Below are positions 1 through 29,389 of a DNA stretch of 64,000 nt, in pieces (within the stretch, counting starts at the first letter, position 1; every line of letters starts with the position of its first letter). The stretch lies in NCBI RefSeq assembly GCF_050920415.1, contig NZ_CP169309.1; one strand, 5' to 3'. Made by a program: the position numbers and the translations under genes. The DNA is from Escherichia coli (GTDB taxonomy: Bacteria > Pseudomonadota > Gammaproteobacteria > Enterobacterales > Enterobacteriaceae). The notes under the pieces were generated by a model. The model did no database searches and had not been told where the DNA came from. It saw nothing but the letters and a program-made list of their open reading frames with translations.

Positions 1-1679
1 AACTCCGCCGGAAAAGAAACCGCCGCAAACCTGTGCCCTATGAACTCATTCCGGGTTCGCTGGCGCGTATGCTGTGCGCCGACTGGTGGTATCGGAAATT
101 ATGGAAGATGCGTTGCGAATGGCGGGAAGAGCAGTTGCGTGCTGTCTGTCTGGTCAGCAAAAAAGCATCTCCCTATGTCAGCTATGAAGCCGTGATGCAT
201 AAACGTGAGCAGCGCCGTAAGTCGCTGGAGTTTTTCCGTTCTCATGAACTGGTGAACGAAGACGGCGACACGCTGGACATGGAGGATGTGGTAAACGCCA
301 GCAGCAGCAACCCTGCGCATCGCCGCAATGAGATGATGGCCTGTGTTAAAGGCCTGGAGCTTATCGCGGAAATACGCGGTGACTGCGCCGTTTTCTACAC
401 CATCACCTGTCCGTCACGTTTCCATTCCACGCTAAATAACGGCAGGCCCAACCCGACCTGGACAAATGCGACGGTAAGACAAAGCAGTGATTATCTGGTT
501 GGCATGTTTGCTGCATTTCGTAAGGCGATGCACAAAGCCGGATTGCGCTGGTATGGCGTGCGGGTGGCTGAGCCGCATCATGACGGTACAGTTCACTGGC
601 ACCTGTTGTGTTTTATGCGCAAAAAAGATCGCCGCGCCATTACTGCTTTGTTGCGTAAGTTTGCCATTCGTGAAGACCGCGAGGAGCTGGGGAATAACAC
701 GGGACCACGCTTTAAGTCTGAGTTGATTAACCCGCGCAAAGGAACGCCGACAAGCTACATCGCGAAATATATCAGTAAGAACATTGACGGGCGTGGTCTG
801 GCTGGCGAGATCAGCAAGGAAACGGGTAAATCCCTGCGTGATAACGCTGAATACGTGAATGCCTGGGCGTCTCTGCATCGTGTTCAGCAATTCCGCTTCT
901 TTGGCATTCCGGGGCGTCAGGCTTACCGTGAACTGCGATTGCTGGCTGGTCAGGCGGCAAGGCAACAGGGTGACAAAAAAGCAGGTGCGCCGGTACTGGA
1001 TAACCCGCGCCTTGATGCAATCCTGGCTGCTGCTGATGCTGGTTGTTTTGCCACCTACATCATGAAGCAGGGCGGCGTACTGGTTCCCCGTAAATATCAC
1101 CTCATCAGAACCGCTTATGAAATCAACGAAGAGCCAACCGCCTATGGCGATCACGGTATTCGTATTTATGGCATCTGGTCACCCATTGCAGAGGGCAAGA
1201 TCTGCACTCATGCAGTGAAGTGGAAAATGGTTCGTAAGGCCGTTGACATTCAGGAGGCGGCAGCCGACCAGGGCGCTTGCGCCCCTTGGACTCGTGGCAA
1301 TAACTGTCCCCTTGCTGAAAATTTGAACCAACAGGAGAAAGATAAATCAGCTGATGGGGGCCCCAGAACGGACTTTACCCGCATGGATGACAAGGAGTTG
1401 CACGATTACCTGCACAGTATGAACAAAAAGGGGCGCCGGGAACTGGCTGCAAGGTTACGTCTGGTGAAACCGAAACGGCGTAGAGACTACAAACAGCGAA
1501 TTACAGACCATCAACGACAGCAGCTCGTCTATGAACTGAAATCCAGAGGATTTGATGGCAGCGAGAAAGAGGTCGATTTACTCCTTCGCGGCGGCAGTAT
1601 TCCGTCAGGAGCAGGCCTGCGTATCTTCTATCGGAACCAGCGTTTGCAGGAAGATGATAAGTGGCGGAACCTGTATTAA
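1..1679 (+). CDS. phage replication initiation protein (P2 gpA-like rolling-circle endonuclease), 5' end outside window
   Basis: Frame is open from window start (no stop before the GTG at 33); 548+ aa resembling P2/186 gpA; position upstream of the A-Q variable region. Confidence 0.8.
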
Positions 1680-1772
1680 TTACGCTGGTTAACAATTCGT
1701 GCTCTTAATAATACCAGGCATATCAGGCTGATAAGCGTAAAAAAAACGTTTTACATCAGTAAGATTATTATA

Positions 1773-1792
1773 TACTGTAAATATAAACAGTG
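1773..1792 (+). promoter_or_regulatory. LexA (SOS) box tACTGT-N8-ACAGtg
   Basis: Sequence tactgtaaatataaacagtg fits CTGT-N8-ACAG consensus; lies ~45 bp upstream of the small ORF/DinI-like pair. Confidence 0.55.
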
Positions 1793-1833
1793 GTTATACA
1801 TACAGCATTGCGTGTGGTGTCATAGGAGGAAAG

Positions 1834-2022
1834 ATGCAGGACTATTTTTTGGAGTCTTTGAAGCTCCAGCGCATTGATTTTTTTCTTAAGCTTGTAGCGG
1901 CTAGTGAGTGTAGTGATGAAGAGAAGGGGCTGGCTCTGCAGTGGGTTTCTGAATTGACTGATGAACTCATGGCAAAAATCAGAAGCCACGAATACAACCG
2001 CTCAATGGATGTCATCAGCTGA
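1834..2022 (+). CDS. small hypothetical protein, possible Tum-like antirepressor N-terminal part
   Basis: 62 aa ORF with ggagga RBS 6-8 nt upstream; follows LexA box; overlaps the DinI-like frame by ~60 nt in a different frame. Confidence 0.45.
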   Translation: MQDYFLESLKLQRIDFFLKLVAASECSDEEKGLALQWVSELTDELMAKIRSHEYNRSMDVIS

Positions 2023-2032
2023 GGTGACTTTT

Positions 2033-2266
2033 ATGCGCATTGAAATAATGATCGATAAAGAGCAGAAGATTAGCCAGTCTACCCTGGACGCCCTTGAATC
2101 CGAGCTTTACCGCAATCTGCGCCCCCTGTATCCCAAAACGGTAATCCGTATCCGTAAAGGTAGCTCTAACGGTGTGGAACTGACCGGACTGCAACTGGAC
2201 GAAGAAAGAAAACAAGTGATGAAAATTATGCAGAAGGTGTGGGAAGACGACAGCTGGCTGTATTGA
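2033..2266 (+). CDS. DinI-family protein (damage-inducible, RecA modulator-like)
   Basis: 77 aa starting MRIEIMIDK...; conserved DinI motifs (MRIE, LDAL..EL, WE..W near C-terminus); gagg RBS before ATG 2033. Confidence 0.75.
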   Translation: MRIEIMIDKEQKISQSTLDALESELYRNLRPLYPKTVIRIRKGSSNGVELTGLQLDEERKQVMKIMQKVWEDDSWLY

Positions 2267-2321: not shown

Positions 2322-2352
2322 GGCGATGTCAATCAGATATCGCCTTGTTTTT
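2322..2352 (+). terminator. putative rho-independent terminator after DinI-like gene
   Basis: ggcgat...atcgcc stem followed by ttgtttttt. Confidence 0.35.
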
Positions 2353-2379
2353 TGTCAAGAAAAGAATAATAGGCTAAAA

Positions 2380-3057
2380 ATGAAAATTAATAATGTAGCG
2401 TTACCAATATCTCTTGCTGTAATCCTAACTGGTTGCGTGCCACATGCTTCTAACCGAAATATCACTGCTATTGAAGTGGTGAAGCCTGCTATTGGGCAAA
2501 GTGCTACCGCCTACATGGGCGATCCCATTATCACATCTGCTACTGGATTTAAAACGGACGTACTAGAACTTGGTGCGGCTAATGGTGCATTGTCTTCTAT
2601 CGCTGCTGGTACATATTGCAGTGAGGGGAATGGAATTTACCGCAATTATCATAACCCTCAAGCTGTTGCGTTAAAAAATCTCTATGGGCAAATCGGTAAC
2701 TATGTTGATTATGTTAGTTACGATGCTGCAAAAAATGAGATATCACCGCCAAATGGTACTTCTTATACTGCATCAGAAATTTCTATCAAACGTGTTCCTG
2801 ATGGGCTGTGTCGAGTTAGTAACTCATTGGTTAAGACTATCGAATACAATGGAAATGCAGGCGGTGTAATGAAGTTCACCTATCGTGAATTTGCAAACGA
2901 TATGGCTCGTGCAGCATTTACAACAGATTTTTCTGTAGATTCTAAGGGAAGTGACGTTATCGCTTACAAAGGTGCCAAGTTCAAAGTGAACAAGGCTGAT
3001 AACTCGTCTATTTCTTATACAATTATTTCTGGCTTTGACAAGGCTGTCACGTTCTAG
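2380..3057 (+). CDS. orphan lipoprotein (225 aa), unknown function
   Basis: Signal peptide MKINNVALPISLAVILTG followed by Cys (lipobox LTGC); AT-rich relative to phage backbone; ORF-track start 2326 trimmed to ATG 2380. Confidence 0.6.
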   Translation: MKINNVALPISLAVILTGCVPHASNRNITAIEVVKPAIGQSATAYMGDPIITSATGFKTDVLELGAANGALSSIAAGTYCSEGNGIYRNYHNPQAVALKNLYGQIGNYVDYVSYDAAKNEISPPNGTSYTASEISIKRVPDGLCRVSNSLVKTIEYNGNAGGVMKFTYREFANDMARAAFTTDFSVDSKGSDVIAYKGAKFKVNKADNSSISYTIISGFDKAVTF

Positions 3058-3161
3058 GTTTCACGCTTACTGAGTATGTTACGATTTTGCACATTCTGCA
3101 TAAGCGCGCATGTCTATGCTGCATGAGATCGCATGATCGTTTGAGGATCTTTTGTGTTAAG

Positions 3162-3186
3162 GCCCGCCAGTTCTGGCGGGCTTTTG
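3162..3186 (+). terminator. rho-independent terminator
   Basis: gcccgcca-gttc-tggcgggc hairpin followed by ttttg. Confidence 0.55.
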
Positions 3187-3230
3187 CGTAGATCATGCAG
3201 GTGCATGAAAACCACTACATAAAGCGGGCA

Positions 3231-3250
3231 GGCGTGGCGGGGATACGAGC
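3231..3250. other. candidate cos (cohesive end) site of P2/186-like phage
   Basis: ggcgtggcggggatacgagc resembles the GGCG(A/T)GGCGGGGAAAGCA(C/T) cohesive-end sequence of P2/186 as I recall it; lies between the accessory region and the portal end. Confidence 0.3.
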
Positions 3251-3374
3251 GCGCGCTCATGGTTGAATTAATGAAATTATGGTGTTAAATAGGCTAGCTT
3301 TTTAAGTCGTGAATATTTGTCAACGCCAAGATTATTGGCCGTTTTTCGCCATTTTTAATGTCCGCTATTGGTCA

Positions 3375-4167
<793 letters not shown>

Positions 4168-4171
<4 letters not shown>

Positions 4172-5338
4172 AACAGCTCCTCATAGGCACTCAACGGCCT
4201 GTGTTCCACCTGACTGACCTGCTGCCAGAGTGGGGCGTGATGCTCCGGCACGGTCTGCCAGCCGTATACAGCCGAACAGAGACGGTGCGATGCTACCTGT
4301 TGCTCATTACTGTAGATCCGCAGTTCATCATCCAGCGAGATCCGTATTGATACCGGCTGGCCACACAGGCTTTCCGGCACGCTGTAACGGTTCCCGCCAA
4401 CCTCGATATAGCCATCCCAGGAGACATGACGGATATCGAAGTAGCTGGTATCGAAGTCCGTACCTGGCAGCGCCTGCAGATGCACCTGTTCCTGCGTGAA
4501 GCGCTGTTCCGGTGTCTGCCTGAACTGGCGAAGTCCCGCCTGTCGGCAACGTCAGCCATCCACTGCTCCAGTAGCTGATTAACATGGGCGAAGCTGTCGA
4601 ACCGGCGGTACCGGACGAAGAAGTTTTCCTTGAGGTATTTCACCATCCGTTCCACCTTACCTTTGGTTCTGGCCCTTCGTGGACGGCAGGCCCGTGGCAG
4701 GAAGCCATAGTGATGGCCAGCAGCAGGAACCCGGAGTTGAACACCACCTTCCCGTTGTTATTTTTCAGCACTGCGGCTTTCTGGTTATCGACCAGCACGG
4801 TTTTCACGCTGCCGCCGAAGTAGCGAAAGGCGCGGACCAGTGACTCATAGGTATGTTCAGCATCCTGCTTTGGTGCCGCGAAGACATGGAAGCGACGTGA
4901 GAACCCCAGCGTATTAACCGCGAAGTTAACCCTGCATCGTTGCCCGGCAACCTCAGCCTCAACTTCTCCCCAGTCATGCTGTAGCTGGTAACCGGGCTGA
5001 GTTTCGAAGCGAACCGTTTTCTTCGATGGCCGCATCTTACGTTTGGGCTGGATGTAGTAACGCAACATGGAACGGCCACCGGTATAACCCATCGCTTTGA
5101 TTTCCGCCAGGATGACCTCGCCGTTCCAGACATTCTCAGCCAGACGCATGTCGATATAGTCCATGAACGGCTTGAGTTTGGCCATTTTGTGGCGTGTTTT
5201 TCTGGCCGGAGGTTCCGGGTATTTCAGGTACCGTCTGACAGTCCGCTCAGAGCAACCAACCTGAGTGGCAATATCAACAATATACGCACCTTGCTGGCGC
5301 ATTTGCTTTATCATGTAAAAGTCCTCTCTGCTCAGCAT
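4168..5338 (-). pseudogene. istA: istA (IS21 transposase) split by at least two frameshifts
   Basis: Three consecutive ORF fragments (4640-5338, 4293-4655, 4168-4485) together cover an IstA-like protein. Confidence 0.6.
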
Positions 5339-5485
5339 GAGTGTTCCCTTTGTGGTGTAGGAACCTTAAGGAAACAACATGTTGGGTGGAGCGGACAATC
5401 CAAATGGTGAATTACTGTCTTATATCATTGGCGCTGACATATTCAATTTTTCAACTCATTTTTTTCATAGGGAGGAGTAATTGAC

Positions 5486-6184
5486 ATGGTTATGTTAGTG
5501 GATGACTGTCCACGATGTGGATCACAAAAAATAGCGTTTGATGTTAATGGGCTGAATTGCACTAGGGTTTACAATGCATTGGGCGGGGGTAAAACATACG
5601 AGTACGAGGTCTATTGTGTTTGCCGAGAGTGTCATAAAACGACAATGTTTCTTTGCAGACCTTTAACGAAAAATAAAACTTTAGATGGCTATAATTGGGA
5701 AAGTGGAATATTCGGCTTAAAGGAAGTTGCAGAGGTTGTTAGGCCTATATCACCGGCAGACTTAGCAGTAGAGGAGCCACCAGAGTTCTTACCTGAGCAT
5801 ATCAATAGTGCATATGAGGAAGGGGCGAAATGTTTGGCTATAGGTTGTTATAATGCAGCAGCAACCATGTTTAGGCTTTGCCTTGATTATGCCACAAAAG
5901 GACTTCTTCCTGATGGGGAGCAAGGGCCTGCGCAAAAAATAAGGAGAAGCCTAGGGTTAAGAATGGAGTGGTTATTTGATAATCATCTACTGCCTGAAGC
6001 TTTAAGGGAACTAGCTGAATGCGTTAAAGATGACGGAAATGATGGAGCGCATGAAGGTATTTTGGATAAAGCTGCTGCTGAGGATCTTGAAGATTTTACC
6101 TATCTTTTTTTAGAACGGCTTTACACTGAACCTCAACGCCTTATCGAAGCCAAGACAAGGCGTGAACAAAGAAGAAACAAATAA
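5486..6184 (+). CDS. orphan protein with N-terminal 4-Cys zinc ribbon and C-terminal DUF4145-like domain; candidate phage-encoded defence/abortive-infection gene
   Basis: CPRC...CREC motif at N-terminus; C-terminal region with LAECVKDDGNDGAHEG signature typical of DUF4145 as I recall it; agggaggag RBS; AT-rich; sits between IS21 and the portal gene. Confidence 0.6.
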   Translation: MVMLVDDCPRCGSQKIAFDVNGLNCTRVYNALGGGKTYEYEVYCVCRECHKTTMFLCRPLTKNKTLDGYNWESGIFGLKEVAEVVRPISPADLAVEEPPEFLPEHINSAYEEGAKCLAIGCYNAAATMFRLCLDYATKGLLPDGEQGPAQKIRRSLGLRMEWLFDNHLLPEALRELAECVKDDGNDGAHEGILDKAAAEDLEDFTYLFLERLYTEPQRLIEAKTRREQRRNK

Positions 6185-6192
6185 GTTCGGAA

Positions 6193-7230
6193 TTATTCTT
6201 CTGAAAGAATATAGGGCGTAAATTTAATCACTTCTTCGCCCAGCCAGTCGTTCAGCTCTTGTAGCCTTTTTTGCAAGGGAGTTAATTCATTACGTACAAA
6301 TACGCGACTGGCCTTCTCCACATCCCCAAACCCTCCAACATTATTAGGCATAATCCCCATCATTTGCGGCGGCACGCGGTGCGCAGCCATCATGTCGTCG
6401 CGGCTGACATTTTTGATATTCAAAAACTCATCCTTCGCCGCGACTTCTGACAATGGGATGATCTGAAGCCCGTCTTTTTTGCCGTTAGGCGAGTACATAA
6501 ACAGGTTGCGGAAGTTGCCTGGACCTTTGGCGCTTTTCATCGCATTGCGGAGGTTGTTCACATCCTCCTGGTTTTGCGCGGCATCGGTCATGTACATGAT
6601 AAAGCCCGCATGACTGCCGTTAATGTAATACTTGCGACGGAACAGCGTGGCGGACTCGTTGAGCAGGGCTGACGGAATGGCAGAAAGATAACCGGGCAGG
6701 CCGTAGATCTCCTGATTAATATCCGGTTCCATCAGATGAAAAATGCTGCCTTTCGTGAACTGATACGGCTGGGTTGTCATACCGTATTGCACAAACCAGT
6801 AGGTATCCAGGTCTAACCCGCGTCGGGTGTATTTTGCCAGTGCAGGCTCAAGGGCGATAACTTCACCGAAGCGGTTCGTGCGTTTCTCCAGGTAGGCGTT
6901 ACCAAAAACCAGATAGTCCTGCACAAAACGCGAAAAAGCCTGCTGGCTGAGCAGCGGGTGAGGGATGTAGGTGCTGGTCAGAATGTTGCACTTTACTGCA
7001 ATCGGGGAACTATGATGCACGGCAGCGCGGAAGGTGCGCGCCAGTCCGTCAAAGCTGACGGGCGGCTCATACCAGCGGTCCATCTGTACGCATTCCACAT
7101 AATCCAGCAGTTCTCGGCGGTCCAGAACAGGAACGGGATCGCCGAAGCTGAATGCTTCGGCTGTAGTTTGACTTTTAAGCTGGATCTGTTTCGTCGCCGC
7201 AGCGCGGTTCTTCTTACTCTTTCCCATCAA
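6193..7230 (-). CDS. portal protein (P2 gpQ-like)
   Basis: 345 aa, P2 Q-like; divergent from capsid operon; overlaps terminase gene by 4 nt. Confidence 0.9.
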   Translation of the reverse strand: MMGKSKKNRAAATKQIQLKSQTTAEAFSFGDPVPVLDRRELLDYVECVQMDRWYEPPVSFDGLARTFRAAVHHSSPIAVKCNILTSTYIPHPLLSQQAFSRFVQDYLVFGNAYLEKRTNRFGEVIALEPALAKYTRRGLDLDTYWFVQYGMTTQPYQFTKGSIFHLMEPDINQEIYGLPGYLSAIPSALLNESATLFRRKYYINGSHAGFIMYMTDAAQNQEDVNNLRNAMKSAKGPGNFRNLFMYSPNGKKDGLQIIPLSEVAAKDEFLNIKNVSRDDMMAAHRVPPQMMGIMPNNVGGFGDVEKASRVFVRNELTPLQKRLQELNDWLGEEVIKFTPYILSEE

Positions 7231-8993
7231 AAAATCTCCACAATATTGCTGGTATTGGCGGATTCGCCCTGCAGCGGTTCGTTAAACAGTGCGTGCATCG
7301 TTGCCCAGGCCAGATCGGCGTGGCTGGCTTCTTCGCTGCGGCTGGCTTCATAGGTCGGGCGGTTGCCACTGGCGGTGGTGGCGCGACGGATTGCCATAAA
7401 GGACTGCGCTATGTCGGTGTGTCCGGCGTCAAACTCCAGACGGCGGTGGCTGATAATGTCGTAGGCCTTGAGTACCAGGGCGTTTTTAACGTTGGGGTTG
7501 TAGACAAACTCCCGGACGGCAGGAAAAAACGCTTTCACGTTCTCGTAAACCCCGTGACCAACGCCGGTTGAGTCGATACCGATATAGGTCACGTTGTACT
7601 GTTCGGTCAGTTTTTTGATGGCGTCAGCCTGGGCGCGGAAGTCCATTCCGCGCCACTGGTGACGCTCAAGAATGCGGAACTTACCGCCCGGCACGGCTGG
7701 CGGCGCCACCACCACGCATCCGGCGCTGTCGCCGTTCTGCGTACCTTTCGCCGGGTCATATCCGATCCACACTTCGCGCCAGCCAAACGGGCGCAGGGCC
7801 AGTGCATGAAAGTCGGTCCAGACTTCCCAACTGTCCACCATGCACGCCTGCAGCTCGCTGAGCGGGAACACGGACGCGAGATCGTCCACGAACTCGCACA
7901 TCAGCAGGTTCTGGTATTCGTCCGGGCTGTACTCCATGCGCAACTGGTCAAGGTCGAACAGGTTACAGCCGCCGCGCACCGCATCTTCCACGGTGACTAT
8001 CTGGCGGTACTGCCCGTCTGCGCACAGCAGGCCGGGGGCCAGATTGCTGTGGGACAGGTCGATGTCCACCTTATCGGCTTTGTTGCGCCCTCGGTTGAAC
8101 AGCGCACCGGACCAGAACGGATAAGCACTGTGTGTCAGGCTGGATGGCGTGGAAAAATAGGTTTGTCGCCATTTTTTGTGAATAGCCATACCGGAAGCCA
8201 CTTTGCGCAGCTCCTGGAATTTCGGTATCCAGAAATATTCATCCAGATACAGGTTGCCGTGGTAACTCTGGGCCGTGCGGGCATTGGTGCCGAGGAAGTA
8301 AAGCGTGGCCCCGTTAGGAAGCACCATCGGATCGCCTTTCAGCTCCACCTCGACTTCTTTGGCGAAGTCGATGATGTACTGCTTAAAGACGTGGGCCTGT
8401 GCCTTACTGGCGGAAAGGAAAATCTGGTTACGTCCGGTCAGCAGGGCGTCAATCAGGGCTTCACGGGCAAAGTAAAAGGTCGCGCCGATCTGGCGAGACT
8501 TCAGCAGGTTGCGGATGCGATTGGTTTTTCCGGCTTCCCACCAGTGGCGCTGGTAGTTGAACATGGAGGAATGGAAGATTTCTTCCAGCTTCTCAATCTG
8601 TTCATCGGTGAAAACATTCTTTTCCGGCTGACGGCGCGGCCCTTTGTTGCGGTTGGCGACGTTAGGGTTTAAGTCGGCTTCGTTGCCGCCATTGTTAAAC
8701 TTGCCGATCCGCGCGTGGCGCTCCGACTGGCGCGCCAGCAGGTCAATTTCTTTGAAATCTTTCCCTTCTTTGTGCTCCTTCATAATGAGCTGGCAGTAGC
8801 GGGCGGCGGTGGTGAGCTGCATCTGATCCAGCGGCCCATAGTCACCCCACTTGTCGCGTTTTTTCCAGCTGTGAACGGTTGCAACTTTCTCGCCCAGCAT
8901 TTCAGCAATGCGGGCTACGCGGTATCCCTGAAAGTACAGCAGCATGGCCTGCCGACGGGGATCGAGATCTGCGGGTGTCAGTGTGGTGTTCAT
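7227..8993 (-). CDS. terminase large (ATPase) subunit (P2 gpP-like)
   Basis: 588 aa; P2 P-like; downstream of divergent late promoter region. Confidence 0.9.
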   Translation of the reverse strand: MNTTLTPADLDPRRQAMLLYFQGYRVARIAEMLGEKVATVHSWKKRDKWGDYGPLDQMQLTTAARYCQLIMKEHKEGKDFKEIDLLARQSERHARIGKFNNGGNEADLNPNVANRNKGPRRQPEKNVFTDEQIEKLEEIFHSSMFNYQRHWWEAGKTNRIRNLLKSRQIGATFYFAREALIDALLTGRNQIFLSASKAQAHVFKQYIIDFAKEVEVELKGDPMVLPNGATLYFLGTNARTAQSYHGNLYLDEYFWIPKFQELRKVASGMAIHKKWRQTYFSTPSSLTHSAYPFWSGALFNRGRNKADKVDIDLSHSNLAPGLLCADGQYRQIVTVEDAVRGGCNLFDLDQLRMEYSPDEYQNLLMCEFVDDLASVFPLSELQACMVDSWEVWTDFHALALRPFGWREVWIGYDPAKGTQNGDSAGCVVVAPPAVPGGKFRILERHQWRGMDFRAQADAIKKLTEQYNVTYIGIDSTGVGHGVYENVKAFFPAVREFVYNPNVKNALVLKAYDIISHRRLEFDAGHTDIAQSFMAIRRATTASGNRPTYEASRSEEASHADLAWATMHALFNEPLQGESANTSNIVEIF

Positions 8994-9038
8994 GGCACAA
9001 ACCTACAGCCTTGAATGAAGGCTTTCCCCGCCTGCGGT

Positions 9039-9056
9039 TTGTGTGGTTGTCGGTAC
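9039..9056. promoter_or_regulatory. Ogr/Delta-type late promoter activator box (TGT-N12-ACA) in divergent P/O promoter region
   Basis: tgt-gtggttgtcggt-aca in the 142 bp intergenic region between terminase and scaffold genes. Confidence 0.4.
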
Positions 9057-9135
9057 AAATACCGCGCATTGTTTCACTGCCCCCATCACCGCAACCATAA
9101 GGCTCCAGTAAGTTTTTTCTAACGGAGCACGGCTC

Positions 9136-9969
9136 ATGACAGTGAAAGCAAAGCGTTTTCGCATCGGGGTGGAAGGTGCCACTACCGACGGACGCGAAAT
9201 CCAGCGTGAATGGCTGGAACAGATGGCAGCCAGCTACAACCCGGCGGTGTATACCGCGCTGATTAACCTTGAGCACATTAAGTCTTATCTGCCGGACAGC
9301 ACGTTTAACCGCTACGGCAAGGTGACGGCGCTGTTTGCTGAAGAAATCGCGGAAGGTCCGCTGGCAGGCAAGATGGCACTGTATGCCGACGTTGAGCCAA
9401 CGGAGTCCCTGGTGGAACTGGTGAAAAAAGGCCAGAAATTATTCACCTCTATGGAAGTCAGCCCGAAGTTTGCTGATACGGGCAAAGCCTACCTGGTCGG
9501 CCTGGCTGCCACTGATGATCCCGCCAGTCTGGGTACGGAAATGCTGACATTCAGCGCCAGTGCAGCCCATAACCCGCTGGCAAACCGCAAGCAGAATCCT
9601 GCCAATCTTTTTACCGCTGCAGAGGAAACGGTGATCGAACTGGAAGAAATCCAGGAGGACAAGCCGTCCCTGTTTGCCCGCGTCACGGCGCTGTTTACCA
9701 AAAAAGAGCAGTCCGATGACGTCCGGTTCTCTGATGTGCATAAGGCCGTGGAACTGGTCGCCACTGAGCAGCAGAACCTGAGCACGCGCACCGAAAAATC
9801 CCTGTCTGAGCAGGAAGAACGCCTGTCTGAGCTGGAGACTGCTCTGCAGGAGCAGCAAACCGCCTTTAACGAACTGGTGGATAAGCTGAGTCATGAAGAC
9901 AGCCGCCAGGACTACCGCCAGCGTGCAACAGGCGGCAACGCCCCCGCTGACACTCTGACCAATTGCTGA
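9136..9969 (+). CDS. capsid scaffolding protein (P2 gpO-like)
   Basis: 277 aa, position and similarity to P2 O. Confidence 0.85.
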   Translation: MTVKAKRFRIGVEGATTDGREIQREWLEQMAASYNPAVYTALINLEHIKSYLPDSTFNRYGKVTALFAEEIAEGPLAGKMALYADVEPTESLVELVKKGQKLFTSMEVSPKFADTGKAYLVGLAATDDPASLGTEMLTFSASAAHNPLANRKQNPANLFTAAEETVIELEEIQEDKPSLFARVTALFTKKEQSDDVRFSDVHKAVELVATEQQNLSTRTEKSLSEQEERLSELETALQEQQTAFNELVDKLSHEDSRQDYRQRATGGNAPADTLTNC

Positions 9970-9985
9970 TGGAGCATAAAACCCA

Positions 9986-11044
9986 ATGAAGAAGAATACC
10001 CGTTTTGCTTTTAACGCTTACCTGCAGCAACTGGCGCGTCTGAACGGTGTGGCAGTTGAGGAACTGTCCAGCAAGTTCACCGTAGAGCCGTCTGTGCAGC
10101 AGACGCTGGAAGACCAGATCCAGCAGTCCGCCGCTTTCCTGACGCTGATTAACGTCACGCCAGTGACTGAGCAGTCCGGTCAGCTGCTTGGATTGGGTGT
10201 TGGCAGCACCATTGCCGGAACCACTGACACCACCGCGAAAGAGCGTGAACCTGTCGATCCGACGCTGATGATCGATGTGGAATACAAATGCGAACAGACC
10301 AACTTTGACACGGTGCTGACCTACGCGAAGCTGGACCTGTGGGCGAAGTTTCAGGATTTCCAGGTGCGTATCCGTGACGCCATCGTGAAACGCCAGGCAC
10401 TGGACCGCATCATGATCGGCTTTAACGGCGTGAAGCGTGCGAAAACCTCCAACCGTAGCGAAAACCCGCTGCTGCAGGATGTGAACAAAGGCTGGCTGCA
10501 GAAAATCCGTGAGGATGCACCGGATCACGTCATGGGCAGCACCACCACGGGCGGTGAAACCACACCGGGTGCGGTGAAAGTCGGGAAAGGTGGCGAATAT
10601 GCCAACCTGGACGCCGTGGTGATGGATGCGGTCAATGAGCTTATCGACGTGGTCTACCAGGACGATGACGATCTGGTGGTGATTTGCGGTCGTGAGCTGC
10701 TGTCTGACAAGTATTTCCCGCTGGTCAACAAAGAGCAGGAAAACAGTGAAAAACTGGCTGCCGATATGATCATCAGTCAGAAACGCATGGGTGGCCTGCA
10801 GGCCGTGCGTGCGCCGTTCTTCCCGCCGAATGCGCTGCTGATCACCCGTCTGGATAACCTGTCCATTTACTGGCAGGAAGACACCCGCCGCCGTTCGGTT
10901 ATCGACAACCCGAAACGTGACCGGATTGAAAATTTTGAATCCGTTAACGAAGCCTATGTGGTTGAGGACTACCGCTGCGCCGCACTGGTGGAAAACATCC
11001 AGATTGGCGACTTCAGCGCCGCCGCAGCAGAAACCGGAGCGTAA
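9986..11044 (+). CDS. major capsid protein (P2 gpN-like)
   Basis: 352 aa, P2 N-like. Confidence 0.9.
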   Translation: MKKNTRFAFNAYLQQLARLNGVAVEELSSKFTVEPSVQQTLEDQIQQSAAFLTLINVTPVTEQSGQLLGLGVGSTIAGTTDTTAKEREPVDPTLMIDVEYKCEQTNFDTVLTYAKLDLWAKFQDFQVRIRDAIVKRQALDRIMIGFNGVKRAKTSNRSENPLLQDVNKGWLQKIREDAPDHVMGSTTTGGETTPGAVKVGKGGEYANLDAVVMDAVNELIDVVYQDDDDLVVICGRELLSDKYFPLVNKEQENSEKLAADMIISQKRMGGLQAVRAPFFPPNALLITRLDNLSIYWQEDTRRRSVIDNPKRDRIENFESVNEAYVVEDYRCAALVENIQIGDFSAAAAETGA

Positions 11045-11047
11045 ACC

Positions 11048-11698
11048 ATGAGCCTGAGTCCCGCACGGCAGCATCGCCTGCGCGTTCAGGCTGAACAGGC
11101 CGCCCGCGAGGGCGGCAGCGTTCGCCACGCGTCGGGCTATGACCTGATGCTGCTGCAACTGGCAGAAGACCGCCGCCGTCTCAAGGGCGTTCAGTCCACG
11201 GTCAAAAAAGCGGAAATCAAGGTGGAGCTGCTGCCGAAATACGCCGCCTGGGCGGAGGGTGTCCTGGCTGCCGGAGGCGCTCAACAGGATGACGTGCTGA
11301 TGTACGTGATGCTGTGGCGCATTGATGCCGAAGATTATGTCGGAGCGCTGGAGATCGGGCGTCATGCCCTGCGTCATGGCTGGGTGATGCCGCTGGGTAA
11401 CCGCAACGTGCAGACCGTGCTGGCAGAGGAAATGGCAGACGCAGCGCAGAGCGCAATGCTTGCCACTACCGGCTTTGATGTCGATCTGCTGCTGCAGACG
11501 CTGGAGCTGACAGACGGTCTGGATATGCCGGACCAGTCACGGGCGCGTCTGCATAAAGCGATTGGCGCTGTCCTGAGTGAAAGTAATCCGGCTTCCGCCC
11601 TTAATCATCTCAACCATGCGTTACAGCTCGATCCCCGCTGTGGCGTGAAAAAAGACAAACAGCAGCTGGAGCGCAGACTGCGCAATGACAGCCGCTGA
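11048..11698 (+). CDS. terminase small (endonuclease) subunit (P2 gpM-like)
   Basis: 216 aa, position after capsid gene. Confidence 0.85.
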   Translation: MSLSPARQHRLRVQAEQAAREGGSVRHASGYDLMLLQLAEDRRRLKGVQSTVKKAEIKVELLPKYAAWAEGVLAAGGAQQDDVLMYVMLWRIDAEDYVGALEIGRHALRHGWVMPLGNRNVQTVLAEEMADAAQSAMLATTGFDVDLLLQTLELTDGLDMPDQSRARLHKAIGAVLSESNPASALNHLNHALQLDPRCGVKKDKQQLERRLRNDSR

Positions 11699-11793
11699 CA
11701 GAACGTGCCCCCGCGCACGGGCGGCACGGGGTGGCGAAAGGCACTGCCACATCAAAACCCCGTCCACCGCCCTTTATTTCAGGAGAAAGCAGC

Positions 11794-12258
11794 ATGAAGT
11801 TTGTTGCGCCAGAACAGGCACCGGAACAGGCGGAAATCATCAGAAATACGCCGTTCTGGCCTGATGTGGACCTGTCGGAGTTTCGCAGTGTCATGCGCAC
11901 TGACGGCACGGTGACGCAGCCGCGTTTAAAGCAGGTTGCGCTGTCGGCAATTTCGGAGGTCAACGCAGAGCTGTATGAGTTTCGCAGACGCCAGCAGATG
12001 CTGGGGTATGCCTCGCTGGCAGAAGTCCCGGCGGAACAACTGGACGGCAAAAGCGAGCGCATTCAGCACTATTTCAACGCGGTTTACTGCTGGGCACGCG
12101 CCATGCTCAACGAACGTTACCAGGACTATGACGCCACGGCATCCGGTGCGAAGCGAGGCGAGGAACTGGCGGAAGCAAGCGGTGATTTATGGCGTGACGC
12201 CCGCTGGGCCATCAGCCGGGTGCAGGATGCGCCGCACTGCACAGTGGAGCTTATCTGA
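11794..12258 (+). CDS. head completion/stabilisation protein (P2 gpL-like)
   Basis: Start set at ATG 11794 (MKFVAPEQ) preceded by aggag RBS; ORF-track start 11731 is probably upstream read-through. Confidence 0.8.
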   Translation: MKFVAPEQAPEQAEIIRNTPFWPDVDLSEFRSVMRTDGTVTQPRLKQVALSAISEVNAELYEFRRRQQMLGYASLAEVPAEQLDGKSERIQHYFNAVYCWARAMLNERYQDYDATASGAKRGEELAEASGDLWRDARWAISRVQDAPHCTVELI

Positions 12259-12461
12259 TGAAAGTGCGTGCGCATCAGTATGACACGGTGGACGCACTTT
12301 GCTGGCGTCATTACGGGCGCACGCAGGGTGTCACGGAGCAGGTACTGAAGGCAAATCCGGGGCTTGCCGAATACGGCCCCTTTTTACCTCACGGGCTGCA
12401 GGTGGAGCTGCCGGACATTCCGACAACCACCACCGTGCAGACCGTCCAGCTATGGGACTGA
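12258..12461 (+). CDS. tail protein X (P2 gpX-like)
   Basis: 67 aa, same size and position as P2 X. Confidence 0.7.
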   Translation: MKVRAHQYDTVDALCWRHYGRTQGVTEQVLKANPGLAEYGPFLPHGLQVELPDIPTTTTVQTVQLWD

Positions 12462-12464
12462 ATT

Positions 12465-12680
12465 ATGACGCTTGAGCGAATCAGCGCCTTTATCACGTAT
12501 TGCATCGCCGTCGTGCTGGCCTGGCTGGGCGATTTGTCCATCAAGGATGCCTCAACGCTGGGCGGCCTGATGATTGGTGTGCTGATGCTGGCTATCAACT
12601 GGTACTACAAACACAAAGCCTACCAGCTTCTGCGCGACGGGCAGATTTCGCGGGAGGACTATGAATCCATCAATCGTTAA
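12465..12680 (+). CDS. holin (small, two predicted TM segments; pinholin-like)
   Basis: 71 aa with two hydrophobic stretches and charged C-terminus; immediately upstream of SAR endolysin. Confidence 0.6.
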   Translation: MTLERISAFITYCIAVVLAWLGDLSIKDASTLGGLMIGVLMLAINWYYKHKAYQLLRDGQISREDYESINR

Positions 12681-13176
12681 ACGCTGCCTTGTCGGAGCCG
12701 TGCTGGCTATTGCTGCCACGCTGCCGGGGTTTCAGCAGCTTCACACCTCCGTGGAGGGGCTGAAACTGATTGCCGATTACGAAGGTTGTCGTCTGCAGCC
12801 GTATCAGTGCAGCGCGGGTGTCTGGACCGACGGCATTGGAAATACGTCGGGCGTCATTCCCGGCAAAACAATCACGGAACGACAGGCAGCAGAAGGGCTT
12901 ATTTCCAACGTGCTGCGTGTGGAGCGGGCGCTGGAAAGGTGTGTGAAGCAACAGCCGCCGCAGAAGGTATATGACGCTACGGTGTCGTTTGCCTTCAACG
13001 TGGGAACGGGCAATGCCTGCAGTTCTACGCTGGTGAAATTGCTCAATCAGCGGCGCTGGGCAGAAGCGTGCCGACAGTTGCCGCGCTGGGTTTATGTGAA
13101 AGGTGTGTTTAATCAGGGGCTGGATAACCGCCGTGCGCGGGAGATGGCCTGGTGCCTTAAAGGAGCTGGATTATGA
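12661..13176 (+). CDS. SAR endolysin (GH24 lysozyme with N-terminal signal-anchor-release domain)
   Basis: N-terminal weakly hydrophobic Ala/Gly-rich segment CLVGAVLAIAATLPGF; E-8aa-C-5aa-T catalytic spacing (YEGCRLQPYQCSAGVWT). Confidence 0.75.
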   Translation: MNPSIVKRCLVGAVLAIAATLPGFQQLHTSVEGLKLIADYEGCRLQPYQCSAGVWTDGIGNTSGVIPGKTITERQAAEGLISNVLRVERALERCVKQQPPQKVYDATVSFAFNVGTGNACSSTLVKLLNQRRWAEACRQLPRWVYVKGVFNQGLDNRRAREMAWCLKGAGL

Positions 13177-13601
13177 CGCGTGCGCTGGCGGTAGTGGCGG
13201 CGCTGGCACTCGTTGCGCTGGGCTGGCAGTCGTGGCGGCTTAACAGCGCCAGCCACACCATCGAAACGCAGCGCGCGGCGCTGAAAAGTAAAGCGCACGA
13301 ACTAACGAAGAAAAATAGCCAGCTGATCAGTCTGTCCATTCTGGCTGAAACCAATAACAGGGAGCAGGCGCGGCTCTATGCCGAAGCAGAACAGACCAGC
13401 GCGCTGCTGAGACAACGACAACACCGGATCGAGGAACTGAAACGTGAGAACGAGGATTTACGCCGCTGGGCTGATACTCCTTTGCCTGCTGACATTATCC
13501 GGCTGCGGGAACGTCCGGCACTCACCGGAGGTGCAGCTTACCGTCAGTGGTTGTCCGCGAGTGACGCCGTGTCGGCTGGAGCAGGCAGCGCCGCGCACTA
13601 A
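13173..13601 (+). CDS. i-spanin (LysB/Rz-like)
   Basis: 142 aa, N-terminal TM, coiled-coil-like; start overlaps endolysin stop (ATGA). Confidence 0.6.
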   Translation: MTRALAVVAALALVALGWQSWRLNSASHTIETQRAALKSKAHELTKKNSQLISLSILAETNNREQARLYAEAEQTSALLRQRQHRIEELKRENEDLRRWADTPLPADIIRLRERPALTGGAAYRQWLSASDAVSAGAGSAAH

Positions 13602-13734
13602 CGGTGATCTGAACGCATTGCTGGATGAAACGGAGGCCGCCTGGGCGGTCTGTGCAGACAAAGTGGACATGATTATTGCGTGTCAGGAGCGAAACAGTGA
13701 ACAAACCACAATCCCTGCGCCACGCCCTCAATAA
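13444..13734 (+). CDS. o-spanin lipoprotein (LysC/Rz1-like), overlapping i-spanin in +1 frame
   Basis: 96 aa with lipobox LTLSGC; begins inside the i-spanin gene. Confidence 0.55.
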   Translation: MRTRIYAAGLILLCLLTLSGCGNVRHSPEVQLTVSGCPRVTPCRLEQAAPRTNGDLNALLDETEAAWAVCADKVDMIIACQERNSEQTTIPAPRPQ

Positions 13735-14128
13735 AGCAGTGCCTTATGTCCGCAATAACCCGGATAAGCTGCATCTGTTTGTGGATAACGGTTCGCTGGT
13801 TGCCACGGGGGCCAGCTCCATGTCATGGGAGTACCGTTATACCCTCAACGTGGTGATTGAGGATTTCAGCGGCGACCAGAATCTGCTGATGGCCCCGGTT
13901 TTGCTGTGGCTGCGTGATAACCAGCCCGATGCCATCAATAATCCGGCGTTACGGGAAAAGTTATTCACCTTTGAGGTGGATATTCTGCGCAACGATGTCT
14001 GTGATATCAGCCTCAACCTGCAACTGACGGAACGTGTGCTGGTCAGCACTGACGGAAGTGTGTCGAGCGTTGAAGCAGTAGCGGAACCCGATGAACCTGA
14101 AGAAATGTGGACGGTGAAACGTGGCTGA
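13697..14128 (+). CDS. tail completion protein R (P2 gpR-like)
   Basis: Similarity to P2 R (NPDKLHLFVDNGS, RYTLNV motifs); GTG start at 13697 after ggagcg RBS. Confidence 0.8.
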   Translation: MNKPQSLRHALNKAVPYVRNNPDKLHLFVDNGSLVATGASSMSWEYRYTLNVVIEDFSGDQNLLMAPVLLWLRDNQPDAINNPALREKLFTFEVDILRNDVCDISLNLQLTERVLVSTDGSVSSVEAVAEPDEPEEMWTVKRG

Positions 14129-14573
14129 ACTGCAGAAGGTGGACGACTGGCTGAGTGCTTTGCTGGCGAATCTGGAACCAGCCGCAAGAAGCCGAATGAT
14201 GCGCCAGCTGGCGCAGGAACTGCGCCGGACACAGCAGCAGAATATCAGGATGCAGCGCAATCCAGATGGCAGCAGTTATGAGCCGCGCAGGGTAACAGCA
14301 CGCAGCAAGAAGGGGCGCATCAAACGTCAGATGTTTGCAAAGCTGCGCACCACAAAATACCTGAGAACTGCCGCCAGCGCGGATTCTGCCAGCGTACAGT
14401 TTGAAGGTAAGGTACAGCGTATTGCCCGTGTTCATCACTACGGTCTGCGCGATCGCGTCAGTCCAAAGGGGGGAGTCATTAAGTATCCATCCCGAAAATT
14501 GCTGGGTTTAAATGAACATACTGAAAATGAAGTAAGAGATTTACTTTTAAAGTATTTATTGATGAAAAATTAG
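14121..14573 (+). CDS. tail completion protein S (P2 gpS-like)
   Basis: 150 aa; last ~30 codons are AT-rich and abut a convergent AT-rich orphan gene. Confidence 0.8.
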   Translation: MAELQKVDDWLSALLANLEPAARSRMMRQLAQELRRTQQQNIRMQRNPDGSSYEPRRVTARSKKGRIKRQMFAKLRTTKYLRTAASADSASVQFEGKVQRIARVHHYGLRDRVSPKGGVIKYPSRKLLGLNEHTENEVRDLLLKYLLMKN

Positions 14574-14578
14574 AATGT

Positions 14579-15109
14579 TTACGCTCTTAATAAACTTAAA
14601 TAACTTTTTATGCTTTGGCAAAAAGGGAAAAGGTCTATTTTAATTTTCCAGTTTTTTTTGTTTTGAACCCCAGAAGCAATAATAGAACCGTCCCAATATT
14701 TTATTCCATTTTTGCCGGTCTTTTTTGTTAACTCAAAACTTAATGCGTGAATAATTTTATTGCAGCATTCGCGTATAGAATCTTTAACATGACCATCTAT
14801 AACAAAAAGTATATTTTCATGTTCTTCAAATGCTTCTTTCTCAGGTGAGTAATCTGGGTTCCACTCATGTTCACTAGTGTCTTGGAGAATTCGTAGTTTT
14901 GTACAAAGGCTAATAAGATTGTTGCTAATGGTATATTCCAACCATCCGTTGTACGATAACTCCTCCATTTCAAATTCAGTTACTATAGAACCATCATATA
15001 CTTTCTGTGTGGAATATATACGCTGTAAATAAAATTCAGATGAACAGCATAATTGCTCAATTATTCTTGCGTGTTCTTCTATAGCGTAATAATCAATTGG
15101 ATGGCTCAT
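14579..15109 (-). CDS. AT-rich orphan gene antisense to the late operon (176 aa, no recognised domain)
   Basis: ORF on minus strand between S and V; aaagg RBS before ATG (MSHPIDYY); markedly AT-rich; ends 5 bp from S stop. Confidence 0.55.
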   Translation of the reverse strand: MSHPIDYYAIEEHARIIEQLCCSSEFYLQRIYSTQKVYDGSIVTEFEMEELSYNGWLEYTISNNLISLCTKLRILQDTSEHEWNPDYSPEKEAFEEHENILFVIDGHVKDSIRECCNKIIHALSFELTKKTGKNGIKYWDGSIIASGVQNKKNWKIKIDLFPFCQSIKSYLSLLRA

Positions 15110-15140
15110 TCTTTTACCTTTCTTTGATTGGAATTGTATT

Positions 15141-15158
15141 TGTGTCATTTACCACACA
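15141..15158 (+). promoter_or_regulatory. Ogr/Delta-type late promoter box (TGT-N12-ACA) upstream of V
   Basis: tgt-gtcatttaccac-aca ~50 bp upstream of V start. Confidence 0.4.
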
Positions 15159-15204
15159 AGGACGTATTGATGCCATAGATTCAAGGTCCGTGCAACCTAA
15201 CCCT

Positions 15205-15783: not shown

Positions 15784-16139
15784 CGCTTTATAGCGGGATG
15801 AACAATACCAGCGGTAAAGCCATTACTGATATTGATCATCTGCGCCAGTCGGTGCGGGACATTTTGCTGACGCCGCAGGGTAGCCGCATTGCCCGTCGGG
15901 AATATGGTTCCCTGCTGTCGGCACTGATAGACCAGCCACAAAATCCGGCATTACGCCTGCAGGTCATGTCGGCAGTGTATGTGGCGCTGAGTCGCTGGGA
16001 GCCACGGCTGACGCTGGATTCCATCACCATTAACAGCAATTTTGACGGTTCAATGGTGGTGGAGCTGACCGGGCGGCGTAATAACGGTGTGCCTGTTTCC
16101 CTTTCCGTATCAACAGGAGCAGAGAATGGCAGTGATTGA
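15780..16139 (+). CDS. baseplate protein W (gp25-like)
   Basis: 119 aa, position and size as P2 W. Confidence 0.8.
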   Translation: MTLYSGMNNTSGKAITDIDHLRQSVRDILLTPQGSRIARREYGSLLSALIDQPQNPALRLQVMSAVYVALSRWEPRLTLDSITINSNFDGSMVVELTGRRNNGVPVSLSVSTGAENGSD

Positions 16140-19026: not shown

Positions 19027-19027
19027 T

Positions 19028-20492: not shown

Positions 20493-20505
20493 ACGTTTAT
20501 GAAAA
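20480..20505. repeat. Hin/Gin-type recombination crossover site (right)
   Basis: ttctcccaaacc-aa-cgtttatgaaaa; inverted relative to site at 18665-18690; 55 bp upstream of invertase gene. Confidence 0.55.
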
Positions 20506-29026: not shown

Positions 29027-29389
29027 TGGTGGAGCTGGCGGGAGTTGAACCCGCGTCCGAAATTCCTACATCCTCGGTACTACATGCTTAGTCAGTCTTT
29101 ACATTCGCTTGCCAGCTGCGGACGGACACGCCACTAACAAACTAGCCTGATTAAGTTTTAACGCTTCAACCCCAGGCAGGGCTTCCACGCGATCTCTTTT
29201 GGGTTTGACCTCTCTTGATCCCCGTCCTAAGAGCGGAGGCTAGGGAGAGAGGGCTCTAAGCAGGTTATTAAGCTGCTAAAGCGTAGTTTTCGTCGTTTGC
29301 GACTATTTTTTGCGGCTTTTTACGAGGCCAACCGCCCCTCGGCATGCACCTTGGGTTTCGCAAATCCCGTCGAATCCAGAATCAGCCCC
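29027..29389 (-). ncRNA. ssrA: tmRNA (SsrA), 363 nt
   Basis: Reverse complement matches E. coli tmRNA from GGGGCUGAUUCUGG 5' end to GCCAGCUCCACCA 3' end, including tag-encoding region. Confidence 0.95.

What the first reader, a model, noticed from the sequence alone, without database searches (positions are those of the whole stretch)
3231..3250. Candidate cos site inside the accessory region
ggcgtggcggggatacgagc shares its first 13 bases with the 19-nt cohesive end I recall for phage 186 and P2. If real, it places the lipoprotein at the right genome end and the IS21 + DUF4145 gene at the left end before Q, which defines what is phage cargo on each side of the packaging site.
Basis: inference. 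Interest (0 to 1): 0.3.

Follow-up and report, generated by a model that had tools for sequence, protein, structure and literature searches.

The report
Packaging (cos) site of P2-like prophage

Summary
The sequence is present as described. GGCGTGGCGGGGA occurs once in 64 kb, against 0 in 100 shuffles. The real unit is the 19-mer at 3231-3249, GGCGTGGCGGGGATACGAG. Base 3250 belongs to the conserved CGCGCGC that follows it.

The 19-mer is identical to the cos annotated in Salmonella phage SEN8, whose record starts at this base. It also occurs in Fels-2, RE-2010, SopEPhi and E. coli phage Cartapus. It lies inside the 55-bp P2/P4/186 cos core (3202-3256), which matches P2, P4 and 186 at 42-44 of 55 positions. 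The site sits between the gpA-side accessory genes and the portal-terminase genes, and gpQ, gpP and gpM are intact.

All relatives lose similarity at 3256/3257. This is the start of the known cos-proximal cargo hotspot, which here holds a decayed IS21-family element (3318-5439) and a DUF4145 gene. Cartapus is the IS-free twin of this left arm and produces encapsidated DNA. The IS lies 61 bp beyond the conserved core, so it should not affect cos.

Cleavage itself is inferred by homology. I found no end-mapping for this cos variant.

One side observation: phased YGCAT repeats lie up to 124 bp on the right-arm side and are shared with P4.

The parts
3231..3249 (+). 19-nt cohesive-end sequence GGCGTGGCGGGGATACGAG. 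The predicted top-strand nick is between 3230 and 3231 and the predicted bottom-strand nick is between 3249 and 3250. This would give 5' overhangs.
   Evidence: Identical to the cos annotated for SEN8. The SEN8 record begins at this 19-mer and ends at the base equivalent to window 3230. It aligns in register with the annotated cohesive ends of P2 and 186. The nick positions are inferred from the 186 record's note.
3202..3256 (+). 55-bp P2-family cos core: 29 nt of right-arm side, the 19-mer, then 7 nt (CGCGCGC) of left-arm side.
   Evidence: Identity is 42/55 to P2, 44/55 to 186 and 43/55 to P4. It is 54-55/55 to Fels-2, RE-2010, SopEPhi, SEN8 and Cartapus. The 55-bp core concept comes from Ziermann & Calendar 1990, as cited in PMC9594776 and PMC5694545. 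A GCGSGC hexamer ends one base before each predicted nick on its own strand.
3107..3139 (+). Upstream block of three YGCAT repeats at -124, -111 and -101 from the top-strand nick (window 3107, 3120, 3130). Candidate terminase-binding array (inferred).
   Evidence: The same offsets occur in P2, 186, P4, SopEPhi and SEN8. Among 114 distinct IMG/VR cos regions they occur in 63%, 85% and 84%, against a background of 0.18% per position.
3161..3186 (+). GC-rich hairpin GGCCCGCCAG..CTGGCGGGC followed by TTTT. It looks like the terminator of the rightward accessory genes and sits at the position of the conserved CGCCAGnnCTGGCG palindrome.
   Evidence: The DNA fold shows an 11-bp stem. The palindrome is conserved at -66..-50 in the IMG/VR set. 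It is absent from P2, so it is not essential for cos. The consensus terminator scan did not list it.
3194..3213 (+). CATGCAGGTGCATGAAAACC: the ATGCA/TGCAT pair at -36/-29 plus an A-tract. This is the right-arm edge of the strongly conserved block.
   Evidence: High information content from -36 to -1 in 114 distinct cos regions. YGCAT at -29 is present in 97% of them.
3257..3317 (+). First 61 bp of left-end cargo DNA, shared only with Cartapus-type phages. In the IS-free phage it continues at 5440-5485, upstream of the DUF4145 gene.
   Evidence: Homology to Fels-2, RE-2010, SEN8, SopEPhi and to most of the listed E. coli prophages stops at 3256-3258. Window 3199-3317 is 99.2% identical to Cartapus 1-119.
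3318..5439 (-). IS21-family element, ISEc62-like, 2122 bp. Ends are TGTCAACGCC...GGCGCTGACA. The 4-bp target duplication TATT is at 3314-3317 and 5440-5443. Both istA and istB are frameshifted.
   Evidence: 98% identical to the intact ISEc62 of E. coli E24377A, with three 1-bp deletions at window 3830, 4534 and 4715. The insertion point and duplication were defined against the uninterrupted Cartapus sequence. The ORFs are fragmented.
5486..6184 (+). DUF4145 gene (232 aa), left-end cargo between cos and Q.
   Evidence: Pfam DUF4145, E=4.5e-7. phrog_1305. Weak PADLOC hit to PD-T7-4, E=1.2e-6. Lies within the stretch that is 99.9% identical to Cartapus, where the corresponding gene is gp01.
2326..3057 (+). 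243-aa ORF, the last gene before the right genome end. Predicted lipoprotein; the likely true start is Met19, at 2380.
   Evidence: MKINNVALPISLAVILTG|C lipobox. The phrog_1353 match begins at residue 19. No Pfam or PADLOC hit. A same-sized ORF sits at this position in Fels-2 (STM2726), where the flanking DNA is near-identical. No similarity to 186 Orf97.
6193..8993 (-). Portal gpQ (6193-7230) and large terminase gpP (7227-8993).
   Evidence: Pfam Phage_portal, and Terminase_5 + Terminase_6N + Terminase_6C. 99.9% identical to Cartapus with no indels.
11048..11698 (+). Small terminase gpM, the presumed cos-recognition subunit.
   Evidence: Pfam Phage_term_smal, E=1.6e-39, and phrog_74. The gpM lineage tracks the ...ATACGAG cos variant.
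33..2266 (+). Right-arm genes before the cargo: gpA C-terminal part (33-1679; the window starts inside the gene), a 62-aa ORF (1834-2022) and DinI (2033-2266).
   Evidence: Pfam Phage_GPA and DinI. Same gene order as Fels-2, RE-2010, SEN8 and Cartapus.
29027..29389 (-). ssrA (tmRNA) gene. Its 3' end is the right attachment site of the prophage. Similarity to Cartapus ends at 29071.
   Evidence: ARAGORN, blastn against Cartapus, and the E. coli context smpB-ratA-bamE.

Best explanation
Window 3231-3249 is the cohesive-end site (cos) of a P2-family prophage. The prophage is of the Fels-2/Cartapus type (genera Felsduovirus/Elveevirus) and is integrated at the 3' end of ssrA in an Escherichia chromosome.

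Proposed mechanism:
1. After excision and replication, the phage terminase (small subunit gpM, 11048-11698; large subunit gpP, 7227-8993) recognises the cos region on circular phage DNA.
2. It makes two staggered nicks: top strand between 3230 and 3231, bottom strand between 3249 and 3250.
3. This produces a linear genome with 19-nt 5' overhangs.
4. The left end starts at 3231 and is followed by the cargo (IS21 element, DUF4145 gene) and then Q. The right end stops at 3249, just after the lipoprotein gene and its hairpin.

Recognition determinants lie almost entirely on the right-arm side. They are the 29 nt of core plus phased YGCAT repeats out to about -124. Only 7 bp (CGCGCGC) are constrained on the left-arm side. 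That would explain why foreign DNA can begin at +27.

Shown here: sequence identity, register, genomic position, intact terminase genes, and the conservation pattern.

Inferred: the cleavage positions, terminase binding to the repeats, and whether this particular prophage is still inducible.
For: - The motif is unique in the window, with 0 of 100 shuffles matching.
- The 19-mer equals the annotated cos of SEN8, a phage sequenced from virions, and the SEN8 record is permuted to start exactly there.
- The 55-bp core aligns without gaps to the sequenced cohesive ends of P2, 186 and P4 at 42-44/55.
- The site lies between gpA/DinI/lipoprotein and Q-P, and gpM is present.
- In 114 distinct IMG/VR cos regions, conservation runs from -36 to +26 and drops to zero at +27. 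The top-listed E. coli prophages, and all the phages compared, lose homology at 3255-3258.
- Cartapus carries the same cos, DUF4145 gene and late genes. It is 99.9% identical with no indels over 21.8 kb, and its DNA is found in DNase-protected virions.
- The IS lies at +88, in DNA that is unconstrained among relatives.
- The cos variant co-occurs with this terminase lineage.
Against: - I found no experimental end-mapping for the ...ATACGAG variant. SEN8 and Cartapus both label it 'putative', so the cut positions rest on homology to P2, 186 and P4.
- The attL-to-gpA part of the prophage is outside the window, so the integrity of int, cox, the repressor and B is unknown.
- The IS adds 2.1 kb. 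The estimated genome is about 35.6 kb, against 33.4 kb for Cartapus, 35.2 kb for SEN8 and 33.6 kb for P2. This could reduce packaging efficiency.
- Positions 1-13 and 21-26 of the IMG/VR profile were fixed by the search pattern, so only the flanks are independent evidence.
Confidence: 0.88

Rival explanations
1. The cos sequence is intact but is a relic. The prophage is defective, through the IS insertion, damage in the unseen left part, or an over-length genome, so the site is never cut in this strain.
For: - An IS21-family element with frameshifted istA and istB sits 61 bp from the core, which shows this locus has accumulated damage.
- The attL-gpA segment is not in the window.
- Even the IS-free twin Cartapus gives only about 3e5 genomes/mL spontaneously, and no indicator host was found for it.
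- The estimated size is about 35.6 kb.
Against: - Every late gene visible in the window is 99.9% identical to Cartapus with no indel.
- The cos core and upstream repeats are unchanged.
- The IS lies in DNA that varies freely among functional relatives.
- SEN8 and SopEPhi have 35.2-kb genomes.
Confidence: 0.2
2. Chance resemblance: a GC-rich 13-mer that happens to match the 186 cohesive end, with no packaging role.
For: With 2 mismatches allowed, the 13-mer has chance-level matches elsewhere. One is at 26109, and shuffles give a mean of 2.1.
Against: - The exact 13-mer was found in 0 of 100 shuffles.
- 55 contiguous bases align in register with three phages whose ends were sequenced.
- The phased repeats at about -124, -111 and -101 line up as well.
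- The genomic position is correct.
Confidence: 0.005
3. The site belongs to a P4-like satellite, which shares the P2 cos core, rather than to the helper-type prophage.
For: P4 has the same core, and like the window it has CGCGCGC after the 19-mer.
Against: - The site is flanked by gpA/DinI on one side and by portal, terminase and capsid genes on the other, collinear with Fels-2, SEN8 and Cartapus.
- No P4 genes (psu, gop) are adjacent to the site.
- The 19-mer differs from that of P4.
Confidence: 0.005

Closest known systems
cos of Salmonella phage SEN8 / Fels-2 / RE-2010 / SopEPhi (Felsduovirus) and E. coli phage Cartapus (Elveevirus)
   Same: The 19-mer GGCGTGGCGGGGATACGAG is identical and the 55-bp core matches at 54-55/55. 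The gene context is the same: DinI ... cos ... cargo ... Q-P. Homology breaks 7 bp after the 19-mer in every case.
   Different: The cargo on either side differs. Fels-2 shares the 243-aa lipoprotein gene but has a different left-end gene. Cartapus shares the DUF4145 gene but has two other genes in place of the lipoprotein. Only the window has the IS21-family insertion.
cos of coliphages P2, 186 and satellite P4 (19-nt 5' cohesive ends; 55-bp core of Ziermann & Calendar 1990)
   Same: The overhang register is the same 19 nt. Positions 1-13 match (186 exactly; P2 and P4 differ at position 5). The GCGSGC hexamer sits one base before each nick. The AAAACC tract and the YGCAT repeats at about -124, -111, -101 and -29 are shared. 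The site has the same position next to the portal gene.
   Different: Positions 14-19 read TACGAG instead of AAGCAC/T. The core is only 42-44/55 identical. The cognate gpM is about 48% identical to that of loci carrying the P2/186-type cos variants. P2 has no cargo between cos and Q and instead carries old and tin on the other side.
cos-proximal cargo / defence hotspot of P2-like phages (Dodd & Egan 1996; Nakayama 1999; Rousset et al. 2022, PMC9122126)
   Same: Variable accessory genes lie between gpA and gpQ, directly abutting cos, with sharp homology breakpoints.
   Different: No defence function has been shown for either cargo gene here. DUF4145 gives only a weak PD-T7-4 hit. A decayed IS occupies 2.1 kb of the left-end slot.

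Membership tests
P2-family cos site | 19-nt GC-rich cohesive-end sequence beginning GGCG(A/T)GGCGGGGA | tested here: met
   3231-3249 = GGCGTGGCGGGGATACGAG. It is unique in the window.
P2-family cos site | Embedded in the 55-bp core conserved among P2, P4 and 186 | tested here: met
   An ungapped alignment gives 42/55 (P2), 43/55 (P4) and 44/55 (186). Fels-2-type phages give 54-55/55.
P2-family cos site | Located between the gpA-side accessory region and the divergent portal-terminase (Q-P) operon of a P2-like genome | tested here: met
   gpA at 33-1679, DinI at 2033-2266, Q at 6193-7230 (-) and P at 7227-8993 (-). The order is collinear with Cartapus.
P2-family cos site | Cognate two-subunit terminase (gpM + gpP) encoded by the same element | tested here: met
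   Pfam Phage_term_smal and Terminase_5/6N/6C. There are no indels against Cartapus.
P2-family cos site | Staggered cleavage giving 19-nt 5' single-stranded ends in virion DNA | not testable with these tools
   This needs virion DNA. I found only homology-based annotations for this variant.
P2-family cos site | Sufficient in cis for packaging or transduction by the cognate phage | not testable with these tools
   This needs a cosmid transduction assay. Flank length affects P2 cosmid efficiency.
P2 cos-proximal cargo hotspot | Gene content differs between otherwise near-identical phages, with breakpoints at the edge of the cos core | tested here: met
   The breakpoint is at 3256/3257 against Fels-2, RE-2010, SEN8 and SopEPhi, and at 3255-3258 against the top-listed E. 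coli prophages. Information content is zero from +27 in 114 cos regions.
P2 cos-proximal cargo hotspot | Cargo encodes anti-phage or other host-fitness functions | tested here: inconclusive
   DUF4145 protein: PADLOC PD-T7-4, E=1.2e-6. Lipoprotein: no PADLOC or Pfam hit.
IS21 family (ISEc62-like) | Terminal inverted repeats starting TGTC..., short target duplication, istA-istB gene pair | tested here: met
   Ends are TGTCAACGCC/GGCGCTGACA, the TATT duplication is present, and identity to ISEc62 is 98%.
IS21 family (ISEc62-like) | Intact istA and istB reading frames (autonomous element) | tested here: not met
   Three 1-bp deletions split istA into three pieces and istB into two.

The most novel reading that the evidence does not exclude
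The functional cos of P2-family phages and P4 satellites may be much larger and more asymmetric than the textbook 55-bp core. A phased array of YGCAT repeats lies at -124, -111, -101, -36 (as ATGCA) and -29, all on the right-arm side. It is conserved in register in P2, 186, P4 and the Fels-2 group, and may be the gpM-binding (cosB-like) element. The left-arm side needs only 7 bp. That asymmetry would explain mechanistically why cargo begins exactly at +27 across the relatives compared here. I could not read Ziermann & Calendar 1990, so this may already be described there.
Probability: 0.2. Interest if true: 0.35.

Novelty: already known. Interest (0 to 1): 0.1.

Why it matters
The cos position fixes the ends of the packaged genome. 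It separates the right-end cargo (DinI and the lipoprotein gene) from the left-end cargo (the IS21 element and the DUF4145 gene) in a hotspot already known to hold anti-phage genes. This is useful for annotating the prophage and for choosing the DUF4145 gene as a candidate defence gene to test. It does not change what is known about P2-type packaging.

Tried and rejected
1. 186 Orf97 has the same length (243 aa) and the same position as the window's lipoprotein ORF, so I tested for homology. There is none.
2. I looked for a sigma-70 promoter between cos and the IS that could drive the DUF4145 gene. My candidate by eye (TTGAAT-17-TAAATA at 3264-3292) does not pass the consensus scan, and no plus-strand promoter was found either here or in Cartapus. 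I make no claim about it.
3. The consensus terminator scan did not list the 3161-3186 hairpin, although the fold shows it. I call it terminator-like only.
4. I searched for experimental mapping of the ...ATACGAG ends. The SEN8 note, the SEN1-34 paper, the Cartapus/LF82 paper and an ELPhiS/RE-2010 search gave annotation-level statements only. The SopEPhi paper (Pelludat 2003) and Ziermann & Calendar 1990 are not held.
5. I checked whether the cos variant co-varies specifically with gpM rather than with the whole head module. It tracks the whole lineage (Q, P, O, N and M all shift together), so this gives no specific co-evolution signal.
6. I looked for a second cos-like site in the window, as might come from a satellite. 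There is none.

Full report
**Observation.** Window 3231-3250 reads GGCGTGGCGGGGATACGAGC. The 13-mer GGCGTGGCGGGGA occurs once in the 64-kb window on either strand, and none of 100 dinucleotide-preserving shuffles contained it. With two mismatches allowed there is one further hit, at chance level. The annotated cohesive ends in the public records are GGCGAGGCGGGGAAAGCAC for P2 and GGCGTGGCGGGGAAAGCAT for 186. The unit is 19 nt (3231-3249). Base 3250 belongs to the flanking CGCGCGC.

**What it is.** I joined the right and left ends of P2, 186, P4 and SEN8, and took the internal sites of Fels-2, RE-2010, SopEPhi and Cartapus. All align to the window without gaps across a 55-bp block: 29 nt (TGCATGAAAACCACTACATAAAGCGGGCA), the 19-mer, and CGCGCGC. 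This is window 3202-3256.
- Identity is 42/55 to P2, 43/55 to P4 and 44/55 to 186.
- Identity is 54-55/55 to the Fels-2-type phages.
- This block is the '55-bp core' attributed to Ziermann & Calendar 1990 in papers I could read.

The exact 19-mer is published as the cos of Salmonella phage SEN8 (PMC5427200). The SEN8 record starts at that base and ends at the base equivalent to window 3230. E. coli phage Cartapus annotates the same region as 'putative cos site, homologous to the cos of P2 phage'.

**Context.** The window begins inside gpA (33-1679). It continues with a 62-aa ORF, DinI (2033-2266) and a 243-aa ORF (2326-3057) before reaching cos. After cos come an IS21-family element (3318-5439), a DUF4145 gene (5486-6184), portal gpQ and large terminase gpP on the minus strand (6193-8993), then O, N and small terminase gpM (11048-11698). 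The prophage ends at the 3' end of ssrA (tmRNA 29027-29389; similarity to Cartapus ends at 29071). The flanking chromosome is about 99% identical to E. coli genomes. No ORF of 50 aa or more overlaps the cos core.

**Cargo boundaries.** Fels-2, RE-2010, SEN8, SopEPhi and the Klebsiella phage records lose similarity within a few bases of the CGCGCGC. The top-listed E. coli prophages lose it at 3255-3258. Each carries different genes between that point and Q.

In 114 distinct cos regions recovered from IMG/VR, per-column information is high from -36 to +26 and falls to zero at +27. Columns 1-13 and 21-26 were fixed by the search pattern. The flanks were not.

This matches the known cos-proximal hotspot. 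Dodd & Egan 1996 and Nakayama 1999 described it as cited in PMC5694545, and Rousset et al. 2022 described it in PMC9122126.

On the right-arm side the 243-aa ORF is shared with Fels-2, but Cartapus has two other genes there. The ORF has a lipobox (MKINNVALPISLAVILTG|C) after Met19, and its PHROG match starts at that residue.

**The IS.** Cartapus is 99.2% identical to window 3199-3317 and 99.9% identical to 5435-18690 and 20479-29071.
- Comparison with the uninterrupted Cartapus sequence defines the element as 3318-5439 (2122 bp), with a TATT target duplication.
- It is 98% identical to the intact ISEc62 of E. coli E24377A.
- It has three single-base deletions (window 3830, 4534, 4715) that frameshift both istB and istA.
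- The rest of the prophage shows no indel against Cartapus over 21.8 kb, so these look like real decay rather than assembly error.
- The IS starts at +88, which is 61 bp beyond the last constrained base of cos, in DNA that is unconstrained among relatives. I therefore do not expect it to affect cos.
- It does separate the DUF4145 gene from 61 bp of its native upstream DNA. I found no convincing promoter there.

**Mechanism (mostly inferred).** The 186 record states that the top strand is cut at the 5' end of the 19-bp feature and the bottom strand at its 3' end. By homology, terminase should nick between 3230 and 3231 on the top strand and between 3249 and 3250 on the bottom strand, giving 19-nt 5' overhangs.

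A GCGSGC hexamer ends one base before each predicted nick on its own strand. This holds in the window and in eight of the nine phages compared; 186 has GTGGGC on the top strand. This partial two-fold symmetry accounts for the 7 conserved bases on the left-arm side.

On the right-arm side there are YGCAT repeats at -124, -111, -101 and -29, and ATGCA at -36. In the window these are at 3107, 3120, 3130, 3202 and 3195.
- The same offsets occur in P2, 186, P4, SopEPhi and SEN8.
- Among the 114 IMG/VR regions they occur in 63%, 85%, 84% and 97% respectively, against a background of 0.18% per position.
- P4 is reported to share nothing else with P2, so this phasing suggests a terminase-binding array. 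That is my inference.

A GC-rich hairpin followed by TTTT (3161-3186) lies between the repeat groups. A related palindrome is common in the IMG/VR set but absent in P2.

The ...ATACGAG variant always accompanies the head and terminase lineage of the window. gpM is about 96% identical within that group and about 48% identical to loci with other cos variants. All head genes shift together, so this marks the lineage rather than showing specific co-evolution.

**Is it functional here?** Cartapus, the IS-free twin, yields DNase-protected genomes at a low level (PMC9928086). If the unseen attL-gpA part equals that of Cartapus, this prophage is about 35.6 kb. That compares with 35.2 kb for SEN8 and SopEPhi and 33.6 kb for P2. 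This is plausible but untested. I found no direct end-mapping for this cos variant.

**Verdict.** The feature is an ordinary P2-family cos whose sequence is identical to published annotations, lying inside a known cargo hotspot. Novelty: already known. Interest: low. The extended phased-repeat architecture is the only point that might go beyond textbook knowledge, and it may already be in literature I could not access.

Noticed in passing
window 3107-3213; also L003-L013 and the IMG/VR loci L015-L134: There are phased YGCAT repeats at -124, -111, -101 and -29, and ATGCA at -36, relative to the top-strand cos nick. They are conserved in register in P2, 186, P4 and the Fels-2-type phages, well outside the 55-bp core. 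They may be a terminase-binding array.
   Followed up: partly
window 3318-5439: The ISEc62-like IS21-family element has three single-base deletions (3830, 4534, 4715) that frameshift istB and istA. The surrounding prophage has no indel against Cartapus over 21.8 kb, so the IS copy appears to be decayed and non-autonomous.
   Followed up: yes
window 5486-6184: The DUF4145 protein in the cos-Q cargo slot has a weak PADLOC match to the single-gene defence candidate PD-T7-4 (E=1.2e-6). The IS sits 46 bp upstream of its start codon and separates it from its native upstream DNA.
   Followed up: partly
window 18690-20479: This segment covers the end of the tail-fibre gene and the tail-fibre assembly genes, next to a Gin-like invertase gene (20555-21127). 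It shows no nucleotide similarity to Cartapus, although the flanks are 99.9% identical. This looks like a host-range cassette swap or a different invertible segment.
   Followed up: no
window 2326-3057: A predicted lipoprotein (phrog_1353, no Pfam family) is the last right-arm gene. A same-sized ORF sits at this position in Fels-2 (STM2726) and the DNA is near-identical in many E. coli prophages. Cartapus has two unrelated genes in its place.
   Followed up: partly
window 29027-29071: About 45 bp at the 3' end of ssrA are shared with the phage (Cartapus) sequence. This is the attachment core of an ssrA-integrating P2-like phage. smpB, ratA and bamE follow.
   Followed up: partly
window ~54100-59900: A gap of about 5.8 kb has no ORF of 150 aa or more and contains tRNA-Glu(TTC) at 56242-56317, downstream of an 861-aa ORF (51508-54093). 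This is probably a ribosomal RNA operon.
   Followed up: no
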